DNA of 64,000 bases from Planctomycetota bacterium (lineage in GTDB: Bacteria > Planctomycetota > UBA1135 > UBA2386), in the NCBI GenBank assembly GCA_965223545.1, contig OZ245006.1, forward strand, positions 4,512,001 to 4,576,000, read 5' to 3'. The notes under the pieces were generated by a model, which saw only the letters and a list, made by a program, of their open reading frames with translations, did not search any database and had not been told where the DNA came from. Positions 17,211 to 29,773 of the stretch are shown here, in pieces. The first letter of the stretch is position 1. Each line of letters starts with the position of its first letter. The translations under genes were made by a program, and so were the position numbers.

Positions 17211-17990
17211 TCACGTCGTCTTCATGATGAAGACGACGGTGTAGAAAGGTGGCAGGTTTACGCCCCCGTGGTCATGCTCTCCATCCACCGCGATGGTATG
17301 GCTATGCGTGTGCGTGTGGTGCCCATCGTCACCGTTCTTCTTTGGCTCACCGCTCGAAGCAGTTTCCCCGGTTCGGCCGCCATGGCTATGCCCGCCATCA
17401 CGAGGGATATCCTCCTGACCACCTTCAACTTGCGACTGGTCTATGTATTGCACGCCGCGTAAGAACCGGCTGTTCAGGTTTGGTGTGCCGTTCTTGCCAT
17501 CACAAATCACCCACTCCTTTGGTGGCTCAGGCTGGGTGGGTGTCGGGACCCAGGCAAGAATTGTCCCGACGGGAACTGAGCGGGCGAGTGCATTCCCTGA
17601 CGCCGTCACGGCGTTGTTGGCGAGTCTCTTTGCGTCGCCGGCATTGTCCACGGCCTCGTCGACGCGGCCGGATAACACCTTGCTCGCATCATCCGCCTGA
17701 GCTGCTTTGCTCTCGGCACGTGTAGCGACGAGTTCTGCGGTTGCGGACTTTTCCTCTGCCTTATCGGCGTCTTCTCGAGCCAGCACTGCGAGAGCAGACG
17801 CTCTCTCGGCTTTCTCCCTAGCTTGGCCAACAAGCCCGTAAAGACCGCTTTGTGCGCTGGGATCCCCAACGTCCTTCCTCAAGCTCGAAACGTCGTAGGC
17901 TCCCCGGGTGAAGAAGGCGGTTCCCGCGATGGCTGCCGAGATGAGCGAGAGAGCGAGTGCCGCGAGGGCAATTTTATCACCGTTTTCCAT
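17211..17990 (-). CDS. Membrane-anchored coiled-coil protein with a phage tail-collar/fibre-like C-terminus
   Basis: N-terminal TM helix; Ala-rich coil; VPVGTILAW...WVICDG.NGTPNL..RFLRG, HSH/HTH, NLPPFYTVVFIMK. Confidence 0.7.
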   Translation of the reverse strand: MENGDKIALAALALSLISAAIAGTAFFTRGAYDVSSLRKDVGDPSAQSGLYGLVGQAREKAERASALAVLAREDADKAEEKSATAELVATRAESKAAQADDASKVLSGRVDEAVDNAGDAKRLANNAVTASGNALARSVPVGTILAWVPTPTQPEPPKEWVICDGKNGTPNLNSRFLRGVQYIDQSQVEGGQEDIPRDGGHSHGGRTGETASSGEPKKNGDDGHHTHTHSHTIAVDGEHDHGGVNLPPFYTVVFIMKTT

Positions 17991-18262
17991 TCTTGTTTCC
18001 TCAACGAGTCCCAAGCATCTCCTCCACGCTGCGATATTCCAGACGTTGGGGCAGCGCAGCCACAACTCGACCGCATGGTCTACCCTCCCGGCCCTCTCGA
18101 GATGCCCCGATGCCGCAGGAGCCACGTCTCGCCCATCTTCTTGCCTGACGGACCAGCCCTTGATGAGACTCATCTGACCCTCGTTGAGGTTCCCACACGG
18201 TTCCCACACTAGGTTCGCGAGCAGGTGCTCAACAGCGAGTAACGGTCGCTAGCAGTCCGTTG

Positions 18263-20177
18263 GTGCGCCGGGAGACCGGCGGAGTGTAGCGAATGAAAGA
18301 GTCGTACGATGAAGGTTGGCGAGCCACGTCGACCCCGAGTCATGCGCCGTCACCCGCGAGGGTGGAGGTGAAGCGTTGACAGGGGCACACGCAGGCCAGG
18401 CTATTGAGCCGCGAAAACTGCTACTTCGGGATGCCGACGCAGTCAACGGATGCGGAAGGCAACACCAGCGCCAGCGAGATCGCCTGCTGGCGCAGGATCC
18501 CGCGCGGGCTGAGAACCAGGGCATGCGTGGAAGCACTCCGCACGGGAACCGGGAGATCTCAGACTTGCCCCGAGGGGAGGGCCCTCGGGGACGCATCGGG
18601 AAGTCTCAGGACGCAATCCGGTGACGCACGAGCCTGAGAAGTCGGACAGCTTCGTAGTACCGGAGAAGCAGCCGAACAAAGCTGGGCAACCGGCGGCGGA
18701 GGCCGTGGAGGAAAGGAAGCTGGCCAAGGGAAACTCGCGAGAGCAAAACGCGCCCCGGACTCAGCGCCGGATCAGCGCGCACAGCGCGCTCGAGCGGGTA
18801 CGTGAAGCAGCAAGGAGGAACAGGAAACAGCAGTTCACTGCGCTCCTACACCACGTCTACGACGTCGATCGTCTTCGGGTTGCGTATCACGCCATCCGGC
18901 GCGATGCAGCCCCCGGCGTCGACGGCGTGACATGGGCGGCCTACGGGGAGCACCTGGAGGATCGTCTCCAGGGCCTCGCGGCTCGCCTTCGGCGCGGAGC
19001 GTATCGAGCGAAGCCGGTGCAGAGGGCCTACGTGCCAAAGGTGGACGGGCGACAGCGTCCCATCGGTCTACCGACGCTGGAGGACAAGATCGTCCAGCGC
19101 GCGGTGGTCGAGGTCCTGAACGCCATCTACGAGACCGACTTCCTCGACTTCAGCTACGGCTTCCGTCCGAAGCGCAGCCCGCACATGGCGCTGGACGCAC
19201 TGACGACGGGAATCATGACACGGAAGGTGAACTGGGTGCTCGATGCCGACATCCGTGGCTTCTTCGATGCCCTCGACCACGGCTGGCTGGTGAAGTTTCT
19301 CGAGCACCACATCGGTGACCGGCGAGTGATTCGACTCATCCAAGAGTGGCTGCACGCCGGAGTCCTGGAGGGCGGGCGCCGAGTGCGTAGCGACAAGGGC
19401 ACGGTCCAGGGCGGGAGTATCAGTCCGCTGTTGGCCAACGTGTTCCTGCACTACGTGTTCGACCTGTGGATCCAACAGTGGCGCCAGACGCGGGCGCGCG
19501 GCGACGTCGTCGTCGTGCGCTTCGCCGATGACTTCGCTGTGGGCTTCGAGCACCGCGAGGAAGCGGAGGCGTTCCACAAGGAGCTGGCGGAGCGCTTCGC
19601 CAGCTTCGGTCTGGAACTGCATCCCGAGAAGACCCGGTTGCTCCGGTTCGGGCGCCACGCGCGCAAGGACGAGAGCGACGACGGTCGCACCGGGCCCCCC
19701 GCGACCTTCAAGTTCCTGGGATTCACGCACATCTGCGGGAAGACCAGGGCCGGCCGATTCACGGTCTACCGCCGAACGGCCACCAAGACACTCCAGCTGA
19801 AGTTGCGGGGGATCCGTGAGGCGCTCCGGCGCCGGAGGCATCTCCCCATCCCCGAGCAAGGGCGCTACCTGCGCTCCGTCGTGCTCGGGCATGTCCGCTA
19901 CTTCGGCGTGCCGATGAACAGCGGGGCGATCACTCGCTTCCGCCACATCGTCATACAGCTGTGGAAACGCAGCCTGGAGCGTCGCAGCCAACGGGGTCGC
20001 ATCCTCTGGGATCGCATGACGCGGCTCGCCGCAGCATGGCTCCCTCCGGCCCGAGTCTGTCATCCCTACCCTCTCGTGCGGCTTGGCGTCATCACCCGAG
20101 GCAGGAGCCCAGTGCGGTAGTCCCGCACGCTGGGATCTGAACGGGGGGCGTCGGGCAACCGGCGTCCCTACCGTGAC
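18263..20177 (+). mobile_element. Group II intron (IIB-like)
   Basis: 5' GTGCG; domain V GAGCCCAGTGCGGTAGTCCCGCACGCTGGGATCTG; domain VI ending ...CCCTACCGTGAC; removing it restores the IS IR and the transposase end. Confidence 0.92.
18621..20120 (+). CDS. ltrA: Group II intron reverse transcriptase/maturase (no HNH domain)
   Basis: APGVDG, RPIGLPT.EDKIVQ, SYGFRP, DADI.GFFD, QGG.ISPLLAN, RFADD, FKFLGF. Confidence 0.95.
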   Translation: MTHEPEKSDSFVVPEKQPNKAGQPAAEAVEERKLAKGNSREQNAPRTQRRISAHSALERVREAARRNRKQQFTALLHHVYDVDRLRVAYHAIRRDAAPGVDGVTWAAYGEHLEDRLQGLAARLRRGAYRAKPVQRAYVPKVDGRQRPIGLPTLEDKIVQRAVVEVLNAIYETDFLDFSYGFRPKRSPHMALDALTTGIMTRKVNWVLDADIRGFFDALDHGWLVKFLEHHIGDRRVIRLIQEWLHAGVLEGGRRVRSDKGTVQGGSISPLLANVFLHYVFDLWIQQWRQTRARGDVVVVRFADDFAVGFEHREEAEAFHKELAERFASFGLELHPEKTRLLRFGRHARKDESDDGRTGPPATFKFLGFTHICGKTRAGRFTVYRRTATKTLQLKLRGIREALRRRRHLPIPEQGRYLRSVVLGHVRYFGVPMNSGAITRFRHIVIQLWKRSLERRSQRGRILWDRMTRLAAAWLPPARVCHPYPLVRLGVITRGRSPVR

Positions 20178-21558
20178 AACAAAGGGTGATCCGAGCGCGC
20201 GGGAAGAACCGGATGTCCATCGGCCTCGAGTCGCCGATCCGCCGAATCCGCCCGACGATTTGAACGACCCAGGAGTCGATTCGAGTTCGGATAGAAGCGC
20301 GGGTCTCGAGACAGGCCAGTAGAAGGCCGCGGAGCCCGCTCTGGATTGCCCTCGGTGTCCCGATCCCGAACAAGCTCCGCATGATCGTCCCGAGGTTGCG
20401 TGCTGCGGCGTGAATCACGTACCGCTTTTTGATGTCGTCGATCCCTCGCAGCCACGTTCGTCGCGCTGCTCCTGACTCGCAGGTGTGAGCAAAGCTGCGT
20501 TCGACCCGCTCGCTCCGGTGTCGTTGGAGCGTCCTTGATCGTGGGCCTGCGACTCGTCGTCGGTTGGCTCGATACGCCTTCTGCCACGACGCGGGCTTGT
20601 CGATCCACTTGCGCTTCCGTTGTAGTCGCGGCTGCGGGATGTAGGTGCGTATGCCGCGCTCGCCCAGCCAGGCGAGTGTCTCGGTCTTGTGGTAGCCCTT
20701 GTCGGCGACGACCTCTTCGTACGAATTGTTGTGCTCGGCGCCAACGAGCATGGCCTCGGCTTCCACAATCGCGTCCTTCAGCGCCTCGCTGTCAGCGGTG
20801 TCGGCATGATGGATCGTCGCGGCGACGAGGATCTCGGACTCGGTGTCGAGCGCGTGCTGCGCTTTGTACGCGAGGTGCGTCCGTCCGTCCTTCATCTTCG
20901 TGATCCGGCTGTCGGGGTCGGTCGGCGACTCCCAATCTTTGTTCGAGACCTTCTTCCCGCGGCGTTTGCGATCGAATCGCCGTAGGTCCTCCTCCGTGGG
21001 GTCTTCGATGCCCTCTCCCTTTGCGAGCTCACGCACGTAGTCGCTCCAGCCCTTGCCGGTGTCCTTGCGGACGATCGACTTCATCGCGGCGTTGGCTTCC
21101 AGCGTGGTCGTGTCCACGGCCAGCGCCTTGCCCCTCACCATGCCCTTGGACTTCGCGATCTTGACGACCAAGGCGAACACCTCTTCGTGAACCTCCACCG
21201 GCAACCGCTTGCGGATCACGGTCAGACTGGAGTGATCAGGTGTGCGCTCAGTCGGTAGCAACCCAAGGAAGTCCTGCAGCGAGCGGCTGTCGCTGCAGCG
21301 CCAGGCAATCCCGCGCTGCGACCCAACTCCCTCGAAGTACCCGACCAGAAGCATCCGGAAGTAGACGCCTGGCGGAATCGACGGGCGGCCGCCTTCCTTG
21401 TAATACGGCTCGCACAGCGACTCGACGTGGTGGTCGAACTCCGCCCCGGCGAGAAGCTCGTTGAGCTTCGAGTAAAACGGATGGCCCGGGGACCGAGGAA
21501 GGCTCGTAGTCGGGACCAAGAGCTCTTGCTGCTTTGCGCGTCGCTTGCCGAGTGCCAT
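20178..21558 (-). CDS. IS1182-family DDE transposase; its last codons (STDC*) are displaced to 18249-18262
   Basis: GRPSIPP, PDHSSL, VDTT..EANA, TDPDS, AYKAQHA.D, ADKGY, VERSFA. Confidence 0.88.
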
Positions 21559-21763
21559 GGGGATCCGTCTCCAGTGATCGAGACATGATCCCTACGTACG
21601 TCGAGCACATCACGACAGGTCGATCTCGATGTTCTTCAACGGCCTGCTAGACACCCAAGTCGCCCTGAACCAAGGGGCCTGACTTGACGCGCAGGGCTGT
21701 CCCGGCTCTGCTGCTGGCTCACCTGACCCTGTGGCTGATCAACCAGGGCAGTGCCCCCTATTC

Positions 21764-22177
21764 ATGGCAACCAAGAAAGGCAAGCAGGCCTACGACTTCG
21801 TCGTTGCGGCTCTGAAGAGAAACAACAAGGTAGAGTTCGCTACTGTTCGCGATGCGGCAGCGAGAAAGGGCATCACCCTCTACCCCATCGTCTACGGCCG
21901 AGCGAAGGCGGCGCTTGGGCTTGTGCCATCCAGGAAACGAGGCGAGGCCAAGGCGGCTCGTGAAAAGGCCGCAGCGAGCAGCCACCGGGGGCCGGGTCGT
22001 CCGAGGAAGACTCAGGCGAGACGTGGTCCGGGACGGCCGCCGAAGAGTCGTTCAACGGGCACGCCGCTCGATGCCGTCCGAGAACTCGCCCAAACCATGC
22101 AGGAGACGGGCCGAGAGAACACACAGCTTCGAGCTACCCTCGAGAAGATTCGGGACCTCATCGACCGAGCGCTCTGA
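21764..22177 (+). CDS. Small basic putative DNA-binding protein with AT-hook-like repeats
   Basis: K/R-rich; RGPGRPRK and RGPGRPPK; C-terminal coiled coil. Confidence 0.65.
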   Translation: MATKKGKQAYDFVVAALKRNNKVEFATVRDAAARKGITLYPIVYGRAKAALGLVPSRKRGEAKAAREKAAASSHRGPGRPRKTQARRGPGRPPKSRSTGTPLDAVRELAQTMQETGRENTQLRATLEKIRDLIDRAL

Positions 22178-22862: not shown

Positions 22863-23207
22863 ATGCGGCGGATGACGAAGAGAATCCCCGTGTGGGCTCG
22901 GGCGGAGATGCGCGAGCTGCTTCAAGAGCTGGACAACTCAGGCGTGACGGTCGCCGAGTTCGCGCGCCGGCGTGGAGTCAACGCAAACCGCATCTACTGG
23001 GCAAGGCGGCAAGCCCGAGCTGCGGCGGCGCCCACGTCCGCGCCGGCGGTGTCGGACTTCGGGGAGCTGGTGGTCGCTGCGGCCCCATCGCCGCGACGAG
23101 CAGCGGCCATTGAGTTGCGGGTGCCGTCGGGCGCGGTTGTCGATGTGCAGCGCGACTTCGACGAGGCGACGCTCCGACGGCTGCTCGGAGTCTTGCTGCC
23201 ATGCTGA
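22863..23207 (+). CDS. tnpA: IS66 TnpA
   Basis: SGVTVAEFARRRGV HTH-like motif; first ORF of the IS66. Confidence 0.8.
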   Translation: MRRMTKRIPVWARAEMRELLQELDNSGVTVAEFARRRGVNANRIYWARRQARAAAAPTSAPAVSDFGELVVAAAPSPRRAAAIELRVPSGAVVDVQRDFDEATLRRLLGVLLPC

Positions 23208-23581
23208 GCTTTCCGCCCTCGCCGCAAGTCAAGATCTTCGTTTGCCGGAAGCCGGTGGACATGAGGAAGAGCTTCAGTGGTCTGTCCGGTGCGGTCATCG
23301 ACGTGGTCGACCACGACCCGCAATCTGGTCACCTCTTCCTCTTCTTCAACAAGCGCCGGACCATGATGAAGGCACTGGTGTGGGAGCCGTCCGGTTACTG
23401 GGTGCTGGCGAAGCGACTGACGAGCGGCCGCTTTCAGGTCTTCGATCGCTCGGCTGAGAACAACAGCCGATTCGAGATTGCGAGTAGCGATCTCGCGCTC
23501 TTGTTGGACGGCATCGACCTCCGTGGCGCGCGACGCAGAGAAGTTCGCGATCAGGTGCTGCAACGACTGGCCGTGACTTGA
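23201..23581 (+). CDS. tnpB: IS66 accessory protein TnpB
   Basis: PVDMRKSFSGL, LFLFFN.RR..MKAL.W...G, LLLDGID. Confidence 0.92.
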   Translation: MLSFPPSPQVKIFVCRKPVDMRKSFSGLSGAVIDVVDHDPQSGHLFLFFNKRRTMMKALVWEPSGYWVLAKRLTSGRFQVFDRSAENNSRFEIASSDLALLLDGIDLRGARRREVRDQVLQRLAVT

Positions 23582-23611
23582 TCCGTCTCCGGTTTGTGTT
23601 AATCAGAGGGA

Positions 23612-25165
23612 GTGACGCCGCTCACGGACCTCGACGAAGCCAACTCGACGATCGTCAAGCTGCGCGCCGAGATCGAGCGCCTTCGCGGGCAGCTCGAACT
23701 GATGAAGCAGCGCACGTTCGGACGGCGCCGCGAGCACATCAATCCGAACCAACTGCTGTTGTTCGAGGCCGGCGTCGCGCAGCTCGAAGAGCTGCAGAAG
23801 CAGGCGCAGGAAGCGGAGCAGTCGAGCGAACTCGCGAAGCCTGACCCGAAGAAGAAGCGGAAGCGCGGTCACGGTCGCGGTCAGTTCGCCGAGCACCTGG
23901 ATCGGCATGTCGTCGAGGTCGACGTGCCGGAAGCGGAGCGCTGCTGCCCCGAGTGCGGCGAGGCCATGCACTGCATCGGGACTGACGTCACCGAGCGTGG
24001 CCACATCATCCCAGCGCGGTTGGTCGTGAAGCGCTACGTGCGCAACAAGTACGCGTGCCCGCACGGGCACAGGATGAAGATGGCGTCGATGCCTGCCGGC
24101 GTCGTCGAGAAGGCGAAGTACGAGCCCTCCGTCTACGCGCATCTTGTCACAGCGAAGTACGGCGACCACCTGCCGCTGAACCGCCTGCAGGGGATCTTCC
24201 GCCGCTTCGGGGCGCACGTCCCGAAGCAGACCATGTGGGACATGCTGGCGCGCTTCGACGAGATCGCGGCGCGTCCGATCCTGGCCGAGATGCGGCGCCA
24301 GCTGCTTCAAGAAGATGTTCTTCAAGCCGACGAGACCCCGATCAGGGTGCGACTGGAAGGCCAGAAGGGCACCCGGCGCGGTGTGCTCTGGGCCTGGCGG
24401 AACGCTCGCGGCAGCCCCAACGAGATGGTCGTGGCCGACTTCAGGGACAATCGATCCGCGAAGGGGCCCAACGCTTTTCTCGGCGCGTGGTCCGGGACAT
24501 TGTTGACCGATGGCTACGACGGTGTGAACCCGAAAGCGCAGCAGAACGCGATCACGCGGGCTGGCTGCTGGGCGCACGCCCGTCGGAAGTTTCGGGATGC
24601 GCTCACTGCTGGTGCATCACGGGCTGGTTTGGCGCTGCGACCGATCCAGAGGCTTTTCTGGATCGAGCGCGCCGTACTGTCCCGAGCGAAGGATCGGAAC
24701 CTGACCCGTGAAGCCCTCATCGAACTGCGTGAGACCGTTCGTAGCCGCAGATCCAAAGCGGTGCTCCACAGCCTCTACGAGATCGTGTTCGGCCTCCAGG
24801 AGGATCCGGCGACCGCGGGCAACGAACTGCTTCGCAAGGCGGTGAGCTACGCCATCCGGCAGCGGGACCCGTTGCTCGCGCACCTCGACGACGGCCGGCT
24901 GCCGATCCACAACAACGACACCGAACGTGACCTGCGCCACGTCGTGACGGGCCGGAAGAACTGGATGACGCTCGCCAGCGAGAAGGGTGGCAACGTGGCA
25001 GCTCGCCTCTACTCGATCGTGCTCAGCTGCAAGCTGGCGAAGGTCAACGTCGAGCGCTACCTCGAGGACGTCTTGGTCGCTGTCGCCACCACGCCGTCGT
25101 CGCGCATCGCCGAACTCACGCCCTGGGGCTGGGCGAAGGCACGCGCTGCCGGCCAGTCCTGCTGA
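23612..25165 (+). CDS. tnpC: IS66 DDE transposase TnpC
   Basis: CPECG, KYGDHLPL.R, ADETP, TDGY, CWAHARRKF, NN..ER.LR, GRKNW. Confidence 0.95.
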   Translation: MTPLTDLDEANSTIVKLRAEIERLRGQLELMKQRTFGRRREHINPNQLLLFEAGVAQLEELQKQAQEAEQSSELAKPDPKKKRKRGHGRGQFAEHLDRHVVEVDVPEAERCCPECGEAMHCIGTDVTERGHIIPARLVVKRYVRNKYACPHGHRMKMASMPAGVVEKAKYEPSVYAHLVTAKYGDHLPLNRLQGIFRRFGAHVPKQTMWDMLARFDEIAARPILAEMRRQLLQEDVLQADETPIRVRLEGQKGTRRGVLWAWRNARGSPNEMVVADFRDNRSAKGPNAFLGAWSGTLLTDGYDGVNPKAQQNAITRAGCWAHARRKFRDALTAGASRAGLALRPIQRLFWIERAVLSRAKDRNLTREALIELRETVRSRRSKAVLHSLYEIVFGLQEDPATAGNELLRKAVSYAIRQRDPLLAHLDDGRLPIHNNDTERDLRHVVTGRKNWMTLASEKGGNVAARLYSIVLSCKLAKVNVERYLEDVLVAVATTPSSRIAELTPWGWAKARAAGQSC

Positions 25166-27784: not shown

Positions 27785-29773
27785 CCCAACTTCCGCAGTT
27801 CGACGGGTCGTCACGTTGAAAAGCAACGACTTACGTCGATTGGTTGGCACTACATCGCGGTCGAACGGAGTGGCGCGGGGACGGATAGCCTCCTGGGTAG
27901 CTGGATGCCGAGCCGGTCGAGCAGGTGCGCCTGCGCCTCGTTGGGGGTGACCACGCAGCGGACCCGGAGTTCGCGGCCGTCAGTAGTTGGCAGGAGCACG
28001 TCTGCGCTTTGGACCTGACGGAGCTCCTCGAGGATGGCGGCCGGGCTGTTGCCGAGTCCGGCCTTCTCCTGCCAGAGCTCGAGCGTTTTCCACAAGGCGT
28101 AGGCGAGGAAGCAGACGAGGATGTGCGCCCTGACCCGGTCCTCGCGTTGATGCCACACCGGGCGGATCGACAGCTCGGACTTCTGGATCCGAAACGCGGA
28201 CTCAGCATCAGTGAGCTGGATGTACGTCCGCCAAAGCTCCTCATCTGTCCAACCCGTCACGTTGGACCTGAGCAGGTAGCACCCGGCGCTCTGGTCCACC
28301 CAGTTCGTGTTCTCACAAGCCTCCACGGCAAGCCCCGATGGTCGATCCGGGGCTTCGATCAACGAAACCGAGAAGCACGTGGAGGCCCGCGAGTTCTGGG
28401 CCAAGATGCGTCCGATCTGTTGATTGACGCGGTCCCGTTCGATCGACTTCTTCGACGCCGCCAGTCGGCGTTCGAGCGACGCAAGCCTCGCGCGAATGCG
28501 TTCGGCTGCTCGCGCGACAATTGCGGCGTCCTTCTCGATGCGCGCCTGGGAGCGACACAGGATGAACGTCTCCTCCCCGTCCTCGCTCGGGCAGAGCTTG
28601 ACCTCGACATCCTCACGAATGCTGCGCCAGTCTCGACGGTCGACGATCTCCTGTTCGAAGCGGCGCAGGTCCGAACGCGATGCGCCGATGACGTACCGTC
28701 GCCTTCCCTCCTTCAACCATTTCAGGTTGCGCTTGCTCACCATTCCGCGGTCCATGACCCAGATGCGATCAGCAGCACCGAATCGCCGCTCCATCGTCTC
28801 GACGATCTCGCGGACCGTCGTGACGTCAGTCCGATTGCCGTCGAACACTTCGTGCGCAAGAGGGATTCCCTGTCTGGTCACGACCAGAGCGATGCAAACC
28901 TGTTTGCAGTCAGGCCGGTGATCTCGGCTGTAGCCACGCTGCGCCTGGGGGTTGCCCAGCATGAGGCCTTCGAAGTAGGTCGAGGTCACGTCGTAGAGCA
29001 GCAAGTCGTACTGAACGTCGAACAACTCGCCGAGCCGTGCGCGGAGATGCTGCTCCAGCGCCTCTTTGTGCGGCAGGATCTGGTCGAGAGCCCGGTAGAG
29101 CCGGTCGTCGTTGACCTTGCCTTCCGGCAGGCCAAGCAGGTCGTCAAGCGCGGTCTGGCGGTACAGGACTTCAGCCAGGTGCAGCTCGCTGGAGGGCATG
29201 CACAACCGACAGATGACCATCGCTGCCGCCATCGTCGACCACGGGACATCTTCACGGCCCCGCGGCATGAGCTCCCAGAGTGCGTCGTCGAACTTCAGTG
29301 CGTGCCACAGCGCCAGGCCGACGAAAACGTCGCCGAAGCGGCGTGTCCGGTCGAGGCTGACCTCCTTCAAGCGAATCGACTCGACCGGGTCGTCGTCTGT
29401 CACCGGTGGCTCAAACAGGCTCGGGTGCATTCGGCGACCGGTCATCCGATCTGCCAGCGCACGAGCCCGGCGTCGCCCCTTCGCATCCAGTTTGCCCAGC
29501 TGCGCGATCACCTCCTGCCGCACTCGACGACCGTGCCGCACCGACCGAACGAGGAGCCAGTACTCGTGGGTCTTGCCGTTCTTTCTGACCGTCTTGCGTC
29601 GCAGGTACACGTCCGCCGCCTCGCACACAGTTGTCGTGCTCCCTGCCACACCGATCAACGGGGCGGGTTGGCACTACACGGCCGATCTGCGCCGCCGCGA
29701 CGGTGGATAGCGGGCTGGCGCCGCGCCGAGGCTCCGAATTGGCCTCAAAAATCGTCGAGCTGCGGAAGTTGGG
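27785..29773 (-). mobile_element. IS1634-family element
   Basis: IRs CCCAACTTCCGCAG / CTGCGGAAGTTGGG; CTAG duplicated at 27781-27784 and 29774-29777. Confidence 0.92.
27850..29610 (-). CDS. IS1634 transposase
   Basis: LYRALD, LYDVTSTYFEG, GYSRDHRPDCKQ, VMDRGM, E.AFR..KSEL.IRPVWH. Confidence 0.93.
   Translation of the reverse strand: MYLRRKTVRKNGKTHEYWLLVRSVRHGRRVRQEVIAQLGKLDAKGRRRARALADRMTGRRMHPSLFEPPVTDDDPVESIRLKEVSLDRTRRFGDVFVGLALWHALKFDDALWELMPRGREDVPWSTMAAAMVICRLCMPSSELHLAEVLYRQTALDDLLGLPEGKVNDDRLYRALDQILPHKEALEQHLRARLGELFDVQYDLLLYDVTSTYFEGLMLGNPQAQRGYSRDHRPDCKQVCIALVVTRQGIPLAHEVFDGNRTDVTTVREIVETMERRFGAADRIWVMDRGMVSKRNLKWLKEGRRRYVIGASRSDLRRFEQEIVDRRDWRSIREDVEVKLCPSEDGEETFILCRSQARIEKDAAIVARAAERIRARLASLERRLAASKKSIERDRVNQQIGRILAQNSRASTCFSVSLIEAPDRPSGLAVEACENTNWVDQSAGCYLLRSNVTGWTDEELWRTYIQLTDAESAFRIQKSELSIRPVWHQREDRVRAHILVCFLAYALWKTLELWQEKAGLGNSPAAILEELRQVQSADVLLPTTDGRELRVRCVVTPNEAQAHLLDRLGIQLPRRLSVPAPLRSTAM

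What the first reader, a model, noticed from the sequence alone, without database searches (positions are those of the whole stretch)
18249..21650. Group II intron programmed to home into IS1182 terminal inverted repeats
Seen: the intron sits 10 bp inside the IS right IR, antisense to the transposase. Its EBS1 CAACGG (18444-18449) pairs with exon CCGTTG, and its EBS2 CTGCTA (18418-18423) pairs with TAGCAG, which spans the CTAG target duplication and the IR start. The target therefore exists only at an inserted IS end. The opposite IS end (minus strand TAGCAG-G-CCGTTG|A) offers the same IBS2/IBS1/+1 and is vacant. Insertion splits the IR and replaces the transposase C-terminus STDC*, and splicing cannot repair this because the intron is antisense. 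Inference: a hyperparasite using IS ends as a renewable safe site and probably immobilising the IS. Introns inside IS ORFs (RmInt1) and attC sites are known; I do not recall IR-junction targeting.
Basis: partly seen in the sequence, partly recalled or inferred. Interest (0 to 1): 0.75.

Follow-up and report, generated by a model that had tools for sequence, protein, structure and literature searches.

The report
Intron homing to transposon end repeats
A mobile self-splicing intron sits in the end repeat of a transposon and base-pairs exactly with that end; the feature is real, but using transposon ends as landing sites was already shown for another intron, so this is a new independent example rather than a new strategy.

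Summary
A 1,915-nt endonuclease-less group IIB intron (class E-like; 18263-20177) sits 10 bp inside the right IR of a 1,479-bp IS1182-like element, antisense to the transposase. Covariation across 79 related introns places EBS1 at 18444-49 and EBS3 at U18510 and supports EBS2 at 18418-23; all 13 exon pairings are Watson-Crick. The 12-base target occurs 7 times in the genome (0.3 expected), always at IS or MITE ends. A related IS with 36 paired copies shows CTAG is a 4-bp YTAR duplication, so IBS2 does span the duplication-IR junction. The novelty claim fails: RmInt2 homes into ISRm17 IRs (PMC4615759), and its site also reaches into a flanking CTAG repeat. This scan has reported IR-homing introns on other DNA before. 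What is added: a third, phylogenetically separate lineage, rhizobial class E introns in CTAG-flanked IS701 IRs, once at both ends of one IS; I found no description of it. Caveats: one copy only, six perfect sites vacant, 0 of 80 other homologs share the target, the IS1182 cut-off is not met, and immobilisation is untested.

The parts
18249..18252 (.). CTAG target-site duplication at the right end of the IS; its TAG supplies the transposase stop codon in the intron-free IS and 3 of the 6 IBS2 bases
   Evidence: 4-bp YTAR duplication inferred from 36 paired copies of a related IS in G032
18253..18262 (+). Outer 10 bp of the right inverted repeat (5' exon)
   Evidence: 13 of 15 identical to the left IR once the intron is removed
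18250..18255 (+). IBS2 TAGCAG (-13..-8)
   Evidence: perfect complement of 18418-23; exon -9 and -10 covary best with columns 18419 and 18420
18257..18262 (+). IBS1 CCGTTG (-6..-1)
   Evidence: covariation with 18444-49
18263..20177 (+). Group IIB intron, class E-like, 1,915 nt, single copy in the genome
   Evidence: RF02005 180.8 bits; boundaries match homologs; one blastn hit in G000
18418..18423 (+). EBS2 CUGCUA in a 13-nt single-stranded loop
18443..18449 (+). delta (U18443) and EBS1 CAACGG in the terminal hairpin loop of Id
   Evidence: delta is U in 79 of 79 sequences, so its partner (probably A18407) is inferred, not shown by covariation
18510..18510 (+). EBS3 (U), pairs with exon +1 A at 20178
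   Evidence: 98% Watson-Crick vs 32% expected, n=59
18621..20120 (+). Intron-encoded RT/maturase, 499 aa, FADD motif at residue 301, no HNH domain detected
   Evidence: TIGR04416 344.6 bits over cut-off 300; Pfam RVT_1 only
20105..20174 (+). Domain V (AGC triad 20106-08) and domain VI (bulged A 20170)
   Evidence: fold of 20100-20177, z -3.2; domain names from established group II intron structure
20178..20182 (+). Inner remainder of the right IR (3' exon; IBS3 = A20178)
20092..21558 (-). IS1182-like DDE transposase, 488 aa as read into the intron (464 aa intron-free)
   Evidence: NF033551 197 bits, below cut-off 270; DUF772, DDE_Tnp_1, DDE_Tnp_1_6
21632..21646 (-). Left inverted repeat with a vacant perfect target (insertion point 21637/21636)
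   Evidence: bridged without intron by contigs of runs X1 and X4
21647..21650 (.). CTAG target-site duplication at the left end

Best explanation
This is an intact-looking class E-like, endonuclease-less group IIB intron whose exon-binding sites have become matched to the conserved end of a family of YTAR-duplicating ISs and their MITEs. Shown from sequence: EBS1, EBS2 and EBS3 pair with CCGTTG, TAGCAG and +1 A. Three IBS2 bases come from the duplicated host CTAG and the rest from the IR. In this genome the motif occurs only at such ends. Inferred from established En-minus intron biology: read-through transcription from outside the IS gives a precursor; the lariat RNP reverse-splices into the target at a replication fork; a nascent strand primes reverse transcription. 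The occupied end has the orientation RmInt2 prefers (lagging-strand template). Inferred and untested: splitting the IR after base 10 blocks this IS copy in cis, while the transposase, altered only in a poorly conserved tail, may still act in trans. It works like RmInt2/ISRm17 but arose independently.
For: Covariation of exon -1..-6 with columns 18444-49 (73-96% pairing vs 30-47% expected) and of +1 with U18510 in 79 deduplicated domain-I sequences. EBS2-loop pairing score 5.12 vs 4.18 +/- 0.07 in 200 shuffles. 7 of 7 exact targets at IS or MITE ends, 0.3 expected. The end motif is conserved in related ISs of other genomes. 11 of 36 IS pairs in G032 carry non-palindromic direct 4-bp repeats against 1 inverted pair. 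dnaA at 4.018 Mb and skew minimum at 4.01 Mb put the occupied + strand site in the favoured orientation. Parallel cases with compensatory EBS1/IBS1 change at IS701 ends. Experimental precedent in PMC4615759.
Against: Only one insertion is known. 6 of 7 perfect sites are vacant, including 3 in the favoured orientation. No intron with this target was found among 80 other homologous loci, 400 same-phylum genomes (one match, with no intron-like sequence behind it), RF02005 loci from 150 same-order genomes (only 3 of 17 aligned loci, the window included, gave a 5' boundary), or viral contigs. G032, with at least 36 copies of the related IS, has no RF02005 match. 9 of 36 G032 pairs have non-identical 4-mers, so the duplication rule is not clean.
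Confidence: 0.75

Rival explanations
1. The target is right but the insertion did not happen in this genome. The intron arrived already in place, inside a transferred island or as cargo of a composite IS that still transposes with only its outer 10 bp. It is now a weakly active or inactive passenger.
For: Single copy with no donor in a two-contig genome; six vacant perfect sites; the neighbourhood holds an IS66 and another DDE transposase; intron and IS are lower in G+C (66%, 63%) than the genome (69.7%).
Against: The intron shows no decay: open 499-aa ORF, intact DV and DVI, perfect EBS pairing. The inner IR bases (AA-R-AA) that are cut off are conserved in most ends listed, which suggests they are needed for transposition.
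Confidence: 0.3
2. A one-off insertion: an intron with some other natural target retrotransposed into this IR, and its EBS then drifted to match the flank because splicing needs the pairing. It is not an IS-end specialist.
For: The nearest homologs use unrelated targets, and targets change often along the tree; n = 1.
Against: All 13 positions are Watson-Crick, and the motif is confined to IS or MITE ends. Two other lineages repeatedly use the same kind of site.
Confidence: 0.15

Closest known systems
RmInt2 of Sinorhizobium meliloti GR4 in the inverted repeats of ISRm17 (Martinez-Rodriguez et al. 2014, PMC4615759; Toro et al. 2018, PMC5894124)
   Same: En-minus group IIB intron; two sites per IS on opposite strands; EBS3-IBS3 is U-A; insertion about 12 bp inside the IR core; CTAG directly outside it (-16..-13 in 7 of 7 GR4 copies), within an 8-9-bp direct repeat in 8 of 10 paired ISRm17 copies (4 perfect, 4 differing at the last base).
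   Different: Class D, 35% aa identity to this IEP. The IS is labelled ISNCY-like, with no convincing similarity between this transposase and the 281 N-terminal residues of ISRm17 transposase compared (E 0.011). 7 copies against 1 here; 2-nt linker and a mismatched EBS2 against a 1-nt linker and a perfect EBS2.
Class E introns of Rhizobium, Sinorhizobium and Bradyrhizobium plasmids in IS701-family IRs (seen here; no description found)
   Same: Class E-like intron pointing inward from a CTAG-flanked IS end; IBS2 includes AG of the CTAG; EBS1 changes with IBS1 (CAACUG/CAGTTG, CCAAAG/CTTTGG) in 6 of 6 fetched records. Both ends of one IS701 are occupied in NZ_CP032692.1.
   Different: 53-54% aa identity; different IS family; insertion 11 bp in rather than 10; a single clade with the window's IEP is rejected (p-AU 7e-44, 21 rows).
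S.me.I4, the disrupted class E intron of S. meliloti GR4 pRmeGR4b
   Same: Best-matching named class: 53% aa identity over residues 125-441; groups with the window's IEP apart from class D.
   Different: Frameshifted; its target was not examined.
RmInt1 in ISRm2011-2
   Same: An En-minus intron living in an IS and proposed to limit its spread (PMC5894124).
   Different: Class D. It inserts inside the IS and not in the IR (position within the transposase ORF recalled, not read in a call).

Membership tests
Group IIB intron | 5' GUGYG, 3' AY, domain V with AGC triad, domain VI with bulged A | tested here: met
Group IIB intron | Exon recognition by EBS1, EBS2 and EBS3 | tested here: met
   covariation in 79 sequences; EBS2 signal strongest at -9 and -10, weak at -8 and -11..-13
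Group IIB intron | Splicing and retrohoming activity | not testable with these tools
   no RNA run listed
Bacterial class E IEP lineage | IEP groups with class E references, apart from classes C and D | tested here: met
   53% to S.me.I4 vs 35% to RmInt1/RmInt2 and 36% to the GR4 class C intron; tree. Only one class E reference, and no class F reference, was included.
Bacterial class E IEP lineage | No endonuclease domain | tested here: met
   Pfam RVT_1 only; PMC4424553 section 8 states that classes C-F lack En
IR-homing group II introns (RmInt2 type) | Insertion site inside the IS inverted repeat, with an equivalent site at the other end | tested here: met
IR-homing group II introns (RmInt2 type) | Several independent insertions at IS ends | tested here: not met
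   one copy; none found
IS1182 family | Transposase reaches the NF033551 curated cut-off | tested here: not met
   197.1 vs 270 bits; still the best hit, IS5_4 next at 95.3; a 46% identical plasmid homolog is labelled IS5 family
IS1182 family | Single DDE ORF with DUF772 and DDE_Tnp_1/1_6 domains between terminal IRs (architecture recalled) | tested here: met
IS1182 family | Assignment against curated ISfinder members | not testable with these tools
   no IS database available

The most novel reading that the evidence does not exclude
Group II introns have converged at least three times (class D on ISRm17, class E on IS701, class E on this IS1182-like family) on the ends of ISs that duplicate CTAG/YTAR, and each reads across the duplication-IR junction. 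Transposition itself would then create the homing site in host-neutral DNA, and the intron would act as a general brake on these ISs by splitting the end and sending antisense RNA toward the transposase 3' end.
Probability: 0.3. Interest if true: 0.55.

Novelty: new member of a known kind. Interest (0 to 1): 0.3.

Why it matters
It extends IR homing from one described class D intron to class E and to two further IS families, and shows the strategy has arisen repeatedly. If insertion blocks the IS end, these introns are a testable natural control on IS spread. On its own, the locus is a single-copy example of a published strategy.

Tried and rejected
No RNA holder was listed. Contigs of 4 runs were laid: no joint that skips the intron and no insertion at 21637/21636 among the rows shown (12 joints and 157 loose ends were not shown). 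X1 and X4 come from one study and may be the source sample, so they are not independent.

The junction pattern search gave one match in 400 other same-phylum genomes and three in viral contigs; none is followed by intron-like sequence. Viral contigs held no relative of the IEP or the transposase.

L107 had a 16-of-18 inverted match upstream, but the ORF between is an iron-sulfur protein, not a transposase. A 3.1-kb IS copy in G032 holds a second long ORF and no RF02005 match.

The sigma-70 scan found no promoter or terminator at 17800-18700, so the source of intron transcription is unknown.

I first considered that CTAG, or its AG, belongs to the IR, because two of three MITEs have unequal 4-mers. 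I rejected this on the G032 copies, where ends with CTAA, TTAA and CTAT occur.

delta-delta' covariation could not be tested because delta is invariant. My notebook's 'identical 5' exon' for the 14-copy second intron was wrong: that stretch is shared upstream sequence of the element itself. PMC2882425, PMC12584367 and PMC7306698 (passages) gave no IR-homing statement.

Full report
OBSERVATION. The sequence shows CTAG (18249-52), CAGTCCGTTG, an intron from GTGCG (18263) to ...CCGTGAC (20177), then AACAAAGG..., a minus-strand transposase starting at 21558, and ...CAACGGCCTG CTAG (21637-50). With the intron removed in a script, the element between the two CTAGs is 1,479 bp and its ends match at 13 of 15 positions. 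The transposase then ends ITLCSTDC* (464 aa), using the TAG of the right CTAG as stop; with the intron in place the last 4 residues are replaced by 28. A second, intron-free copy in the genome (84% nt) ends SSTAC* in the same way. The intron matches Rfam RF02005 at 180.8 bits. Its 499-aa protein passes TIGR04416 and has no HNH hit, and domains V and VI fold canonically. Contigs of run X1 bridge both junctions without differences, but that run may be the source sample.

EXON-BINDING SITES. I fetched 110 homologous loci (30 from genome contigs; the best 80 of 230 from metagenome contigs) and 6 plasmid records. A 5' boundary could be called for 87 loci including the window. Three were dropped (one mis-called end, two tandem introns) and duplicates merged, leaving 79. 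For exon positions -1 to -6 the best-covarying intron columns are exactly 18444 to 18449 (73-96% Watson-Crick against 30-47% expected). For +1 the best column is U18510 (98% against 32%, n = 59). Positions -9 and -10 point to 18419 and 18420; -8 and -11 to -13 are weak in a column test because the EBS2 register shifts between lineages. A register-free score gives 5.12 against 4.18 +/- 0.07 for 200 shuffles. The window scores the maximum of 6, which its loop also reaches against 2 of 78 other exons. The sequences are related, so these figures are not probabilities.

TARGET. TAGCAG-N-CCGTTG occurs 7 times in G000 against 0.27-0.36 expected. The 7 are both ends of this IS, both ends of the second IS, and three ends of about 160-bp MITEs with the same termini. 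Six are vacant. dnaA (4.018 Mb) and the GC-skew minimum (4.01 Mb) place the origin, so the + strand at 4.53 Mb is the lagging-strand template. One of 4 sites in that orientation is occupied and 0 of 3 in the other, which agrees with the preference reported for RmInt2 but is too few to test.

IS CTAG A DUPLICATION? Genome G032 carries a relative of this IS (81% aa). I paired its ends by hand (12 further matches were not listed) into 36 copies of equal length: 14 CTAG/CTAG, 2 TTAA/TTAA, 11 non-palindromic perfect direct repeats (TTAG, CTAA, CTAT, ATAG), and 9 unequal pairs, of which 1 is inverted. The IR therefore begins at CAG and the flank is a 4-bp YTAR duplication. Three IBS2 bases are host-derived, and 53 of 72 ends would offer TAG before CAG. 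'Only at an inserted end' holds for the chromosome; an excised or circular IS carrying its flank could offer the site as well (inference).

HOMOLOGS. None of the 80 other non-rhizobial loci has the CCGTTG exon. The closest proteins (up to 71% aa) have other EBS sequences matched to other motifs. Among 43 of them with both ends called and at least 700 bp on one flank, none lay at a detectable IS IR, though flanks were often short on one side. No intron with this target appeared in 400 same-phylum genomes, among RF02005 loci of 150 same-order genomes (3 of 17 aligned loci gave a boundary, the window included), in G032, or in viral contigs. Specialisation of this particular intron thus rests on one insertion.

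A PARALLEL LINEAGE. A blastn of exon plus domain I against plasmids returned rhizobial introns whose alignment ran into the exon. All 6 records fetched, chosen from those top hits, have YTAG plus 11 bp before GTGCG, with EBS1 changing together with IBS1. IS701-family transposases adjoin three of them, and in Rhizobium sp. CCGE532 plasmid NZ_CP032692.1 identical introns occupy both IRs of one IS701 (415 bits over cut-off 150). These IEPs are 53-54% identical to the window's. Starred branches force at least two origins (32 rows), and one clade is rejected (p-AU 7e-44; 21 rows, quick tree). Searches for group II intron with IS701, with class E, and with terminal inverted repeat returned no listing that describes this. 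The library lacks most subscription papers; Toro et al. 2002 on class E was seen only as a reference.

WHAT IS KNOWN. PMC4615759 (12 of 25 passages and a search of its one supplement) reports RmInt2 copies 'within the inverted repeats' of ISRm17, two sites per IS on opposite strands, retrohoming with lagging-strand bias, selection for CTAGTTC at -16..-10, and a U-A EBS3 pair. PMC5894124 (3 of 3 passages) repeats this and argues that such introns limit IS spread. In GR4, 7 of 7 RmInt2 copies have CTAG at -16..-13. In 8 of 10 paired ISRm17 copies this CTAG is part of an 8-9-bp direct repeat, so junction-spanning recognition probably applies there too, though the passages I read do not say so. 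PMC4424553 (passages and section 8) gives the En-minus mechanism. The class assignment rests on 53% identity to S.me.I4 against 35% to class D. Earlier notes of this scan list IR-homing introns in other genomes (36 findings held the words, 8 shown). I had found the RmInt2 papers before reading them and did not check their loci.

MECHANISM AND VERDICT. Shown: anatomy, EBS positions, confinement of the target to IS and MITE ends, the YTAR duplication, and independent origin from the rhizobial and class D cases. Inferred: retrohoming at the fork, transcription by read-through from outside the IS (no promoter found), and a block of the IS in cis. The replaced transposase tail lies beyond the Pfam DDE matches (to about residue 390) and beyond the part aligned with plasmid homologs (to 406-423), so loss of transposase function is not established. 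The IS is IS1182-like but below the family cut-off. This is a clean new member of a known kind. The modest addition is the convergence of three lineages on CTAG-duplicating IS ends.

Noticed in passing
L001, L002, L010, L032, L036-L038, L048, L050, L051, L053, L056-L058, L061-L063 (intron 5' junctions): Many of the closest homologs (54-71% aa) have EBS1 containing GGAG or similar, EBS2 often with (C)AUG, and 5' exons ending CAT-N-CTCC or close variants. They appear to home on the antisense strand of a Shine-Dalgarno sequence plus start codon. One paper search listed nothing describing this.
   Followed up: partly
L023, L041, L046, L067, L075, L079, L080, L084; L013-L015; L093, L095: Other homologs target short genomic repeats: GTTTCGGATTTCG, CTTCGTGTCCTTGGTG, GGGGGAAG-type.
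   Followed up: no
L003-L006, L008, L012, L017, L019, L031, L032, L045, L051, L069-L072, L076, L077, L085, L087, L098: These introns appear to start with GAAAGCG or GATAGCG instead of GTGCG; where EBS1 was extracted it pairs with the bases just upstream.
   Followed up: partly
L149-L154, L173 (rhizobial plasmids): Class E introns inside CTAG-flanked IS701-family IRs; both ends occupied in NZ_CP032692.1 at about 163870-169108.
   Followed up: yes
G032: 9 of 36 IS copies have flanking 4-mers differing at the first and/or last base while the central TA is kept. This could reflect recombination between copies, or excision that carries the donor flank, as recalled for piggyBac.
   Followed up: partly
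G000 C1 4474692-4474856, 5347947-5348110, 3035335-3035501: A family of about 160-bp MITEs with the same ends as the IS.
   Followed up: partly
G000 C1, 14 places (e.g. 1356927, 2256029, 5062165, 6354142): A second, multicopy RT element (38.6% aa over residues 72-276), probably another group II intron; most copies are preceded by a similar GC-rich repeat of about 40 nt.
   Followed up: partly
window 22863-25165 (+) and 27850-29658 (-): An IS66 element (TnpB and TnpC domains) and another DDE_Tnp_1 transposase lie close by.
   Followed up: partly
window 17214-18209 (-) and 21764-22177 (+): The IS lies between two divergent ORFs with no Pfam or NCBIfam match.
   Followed up: no
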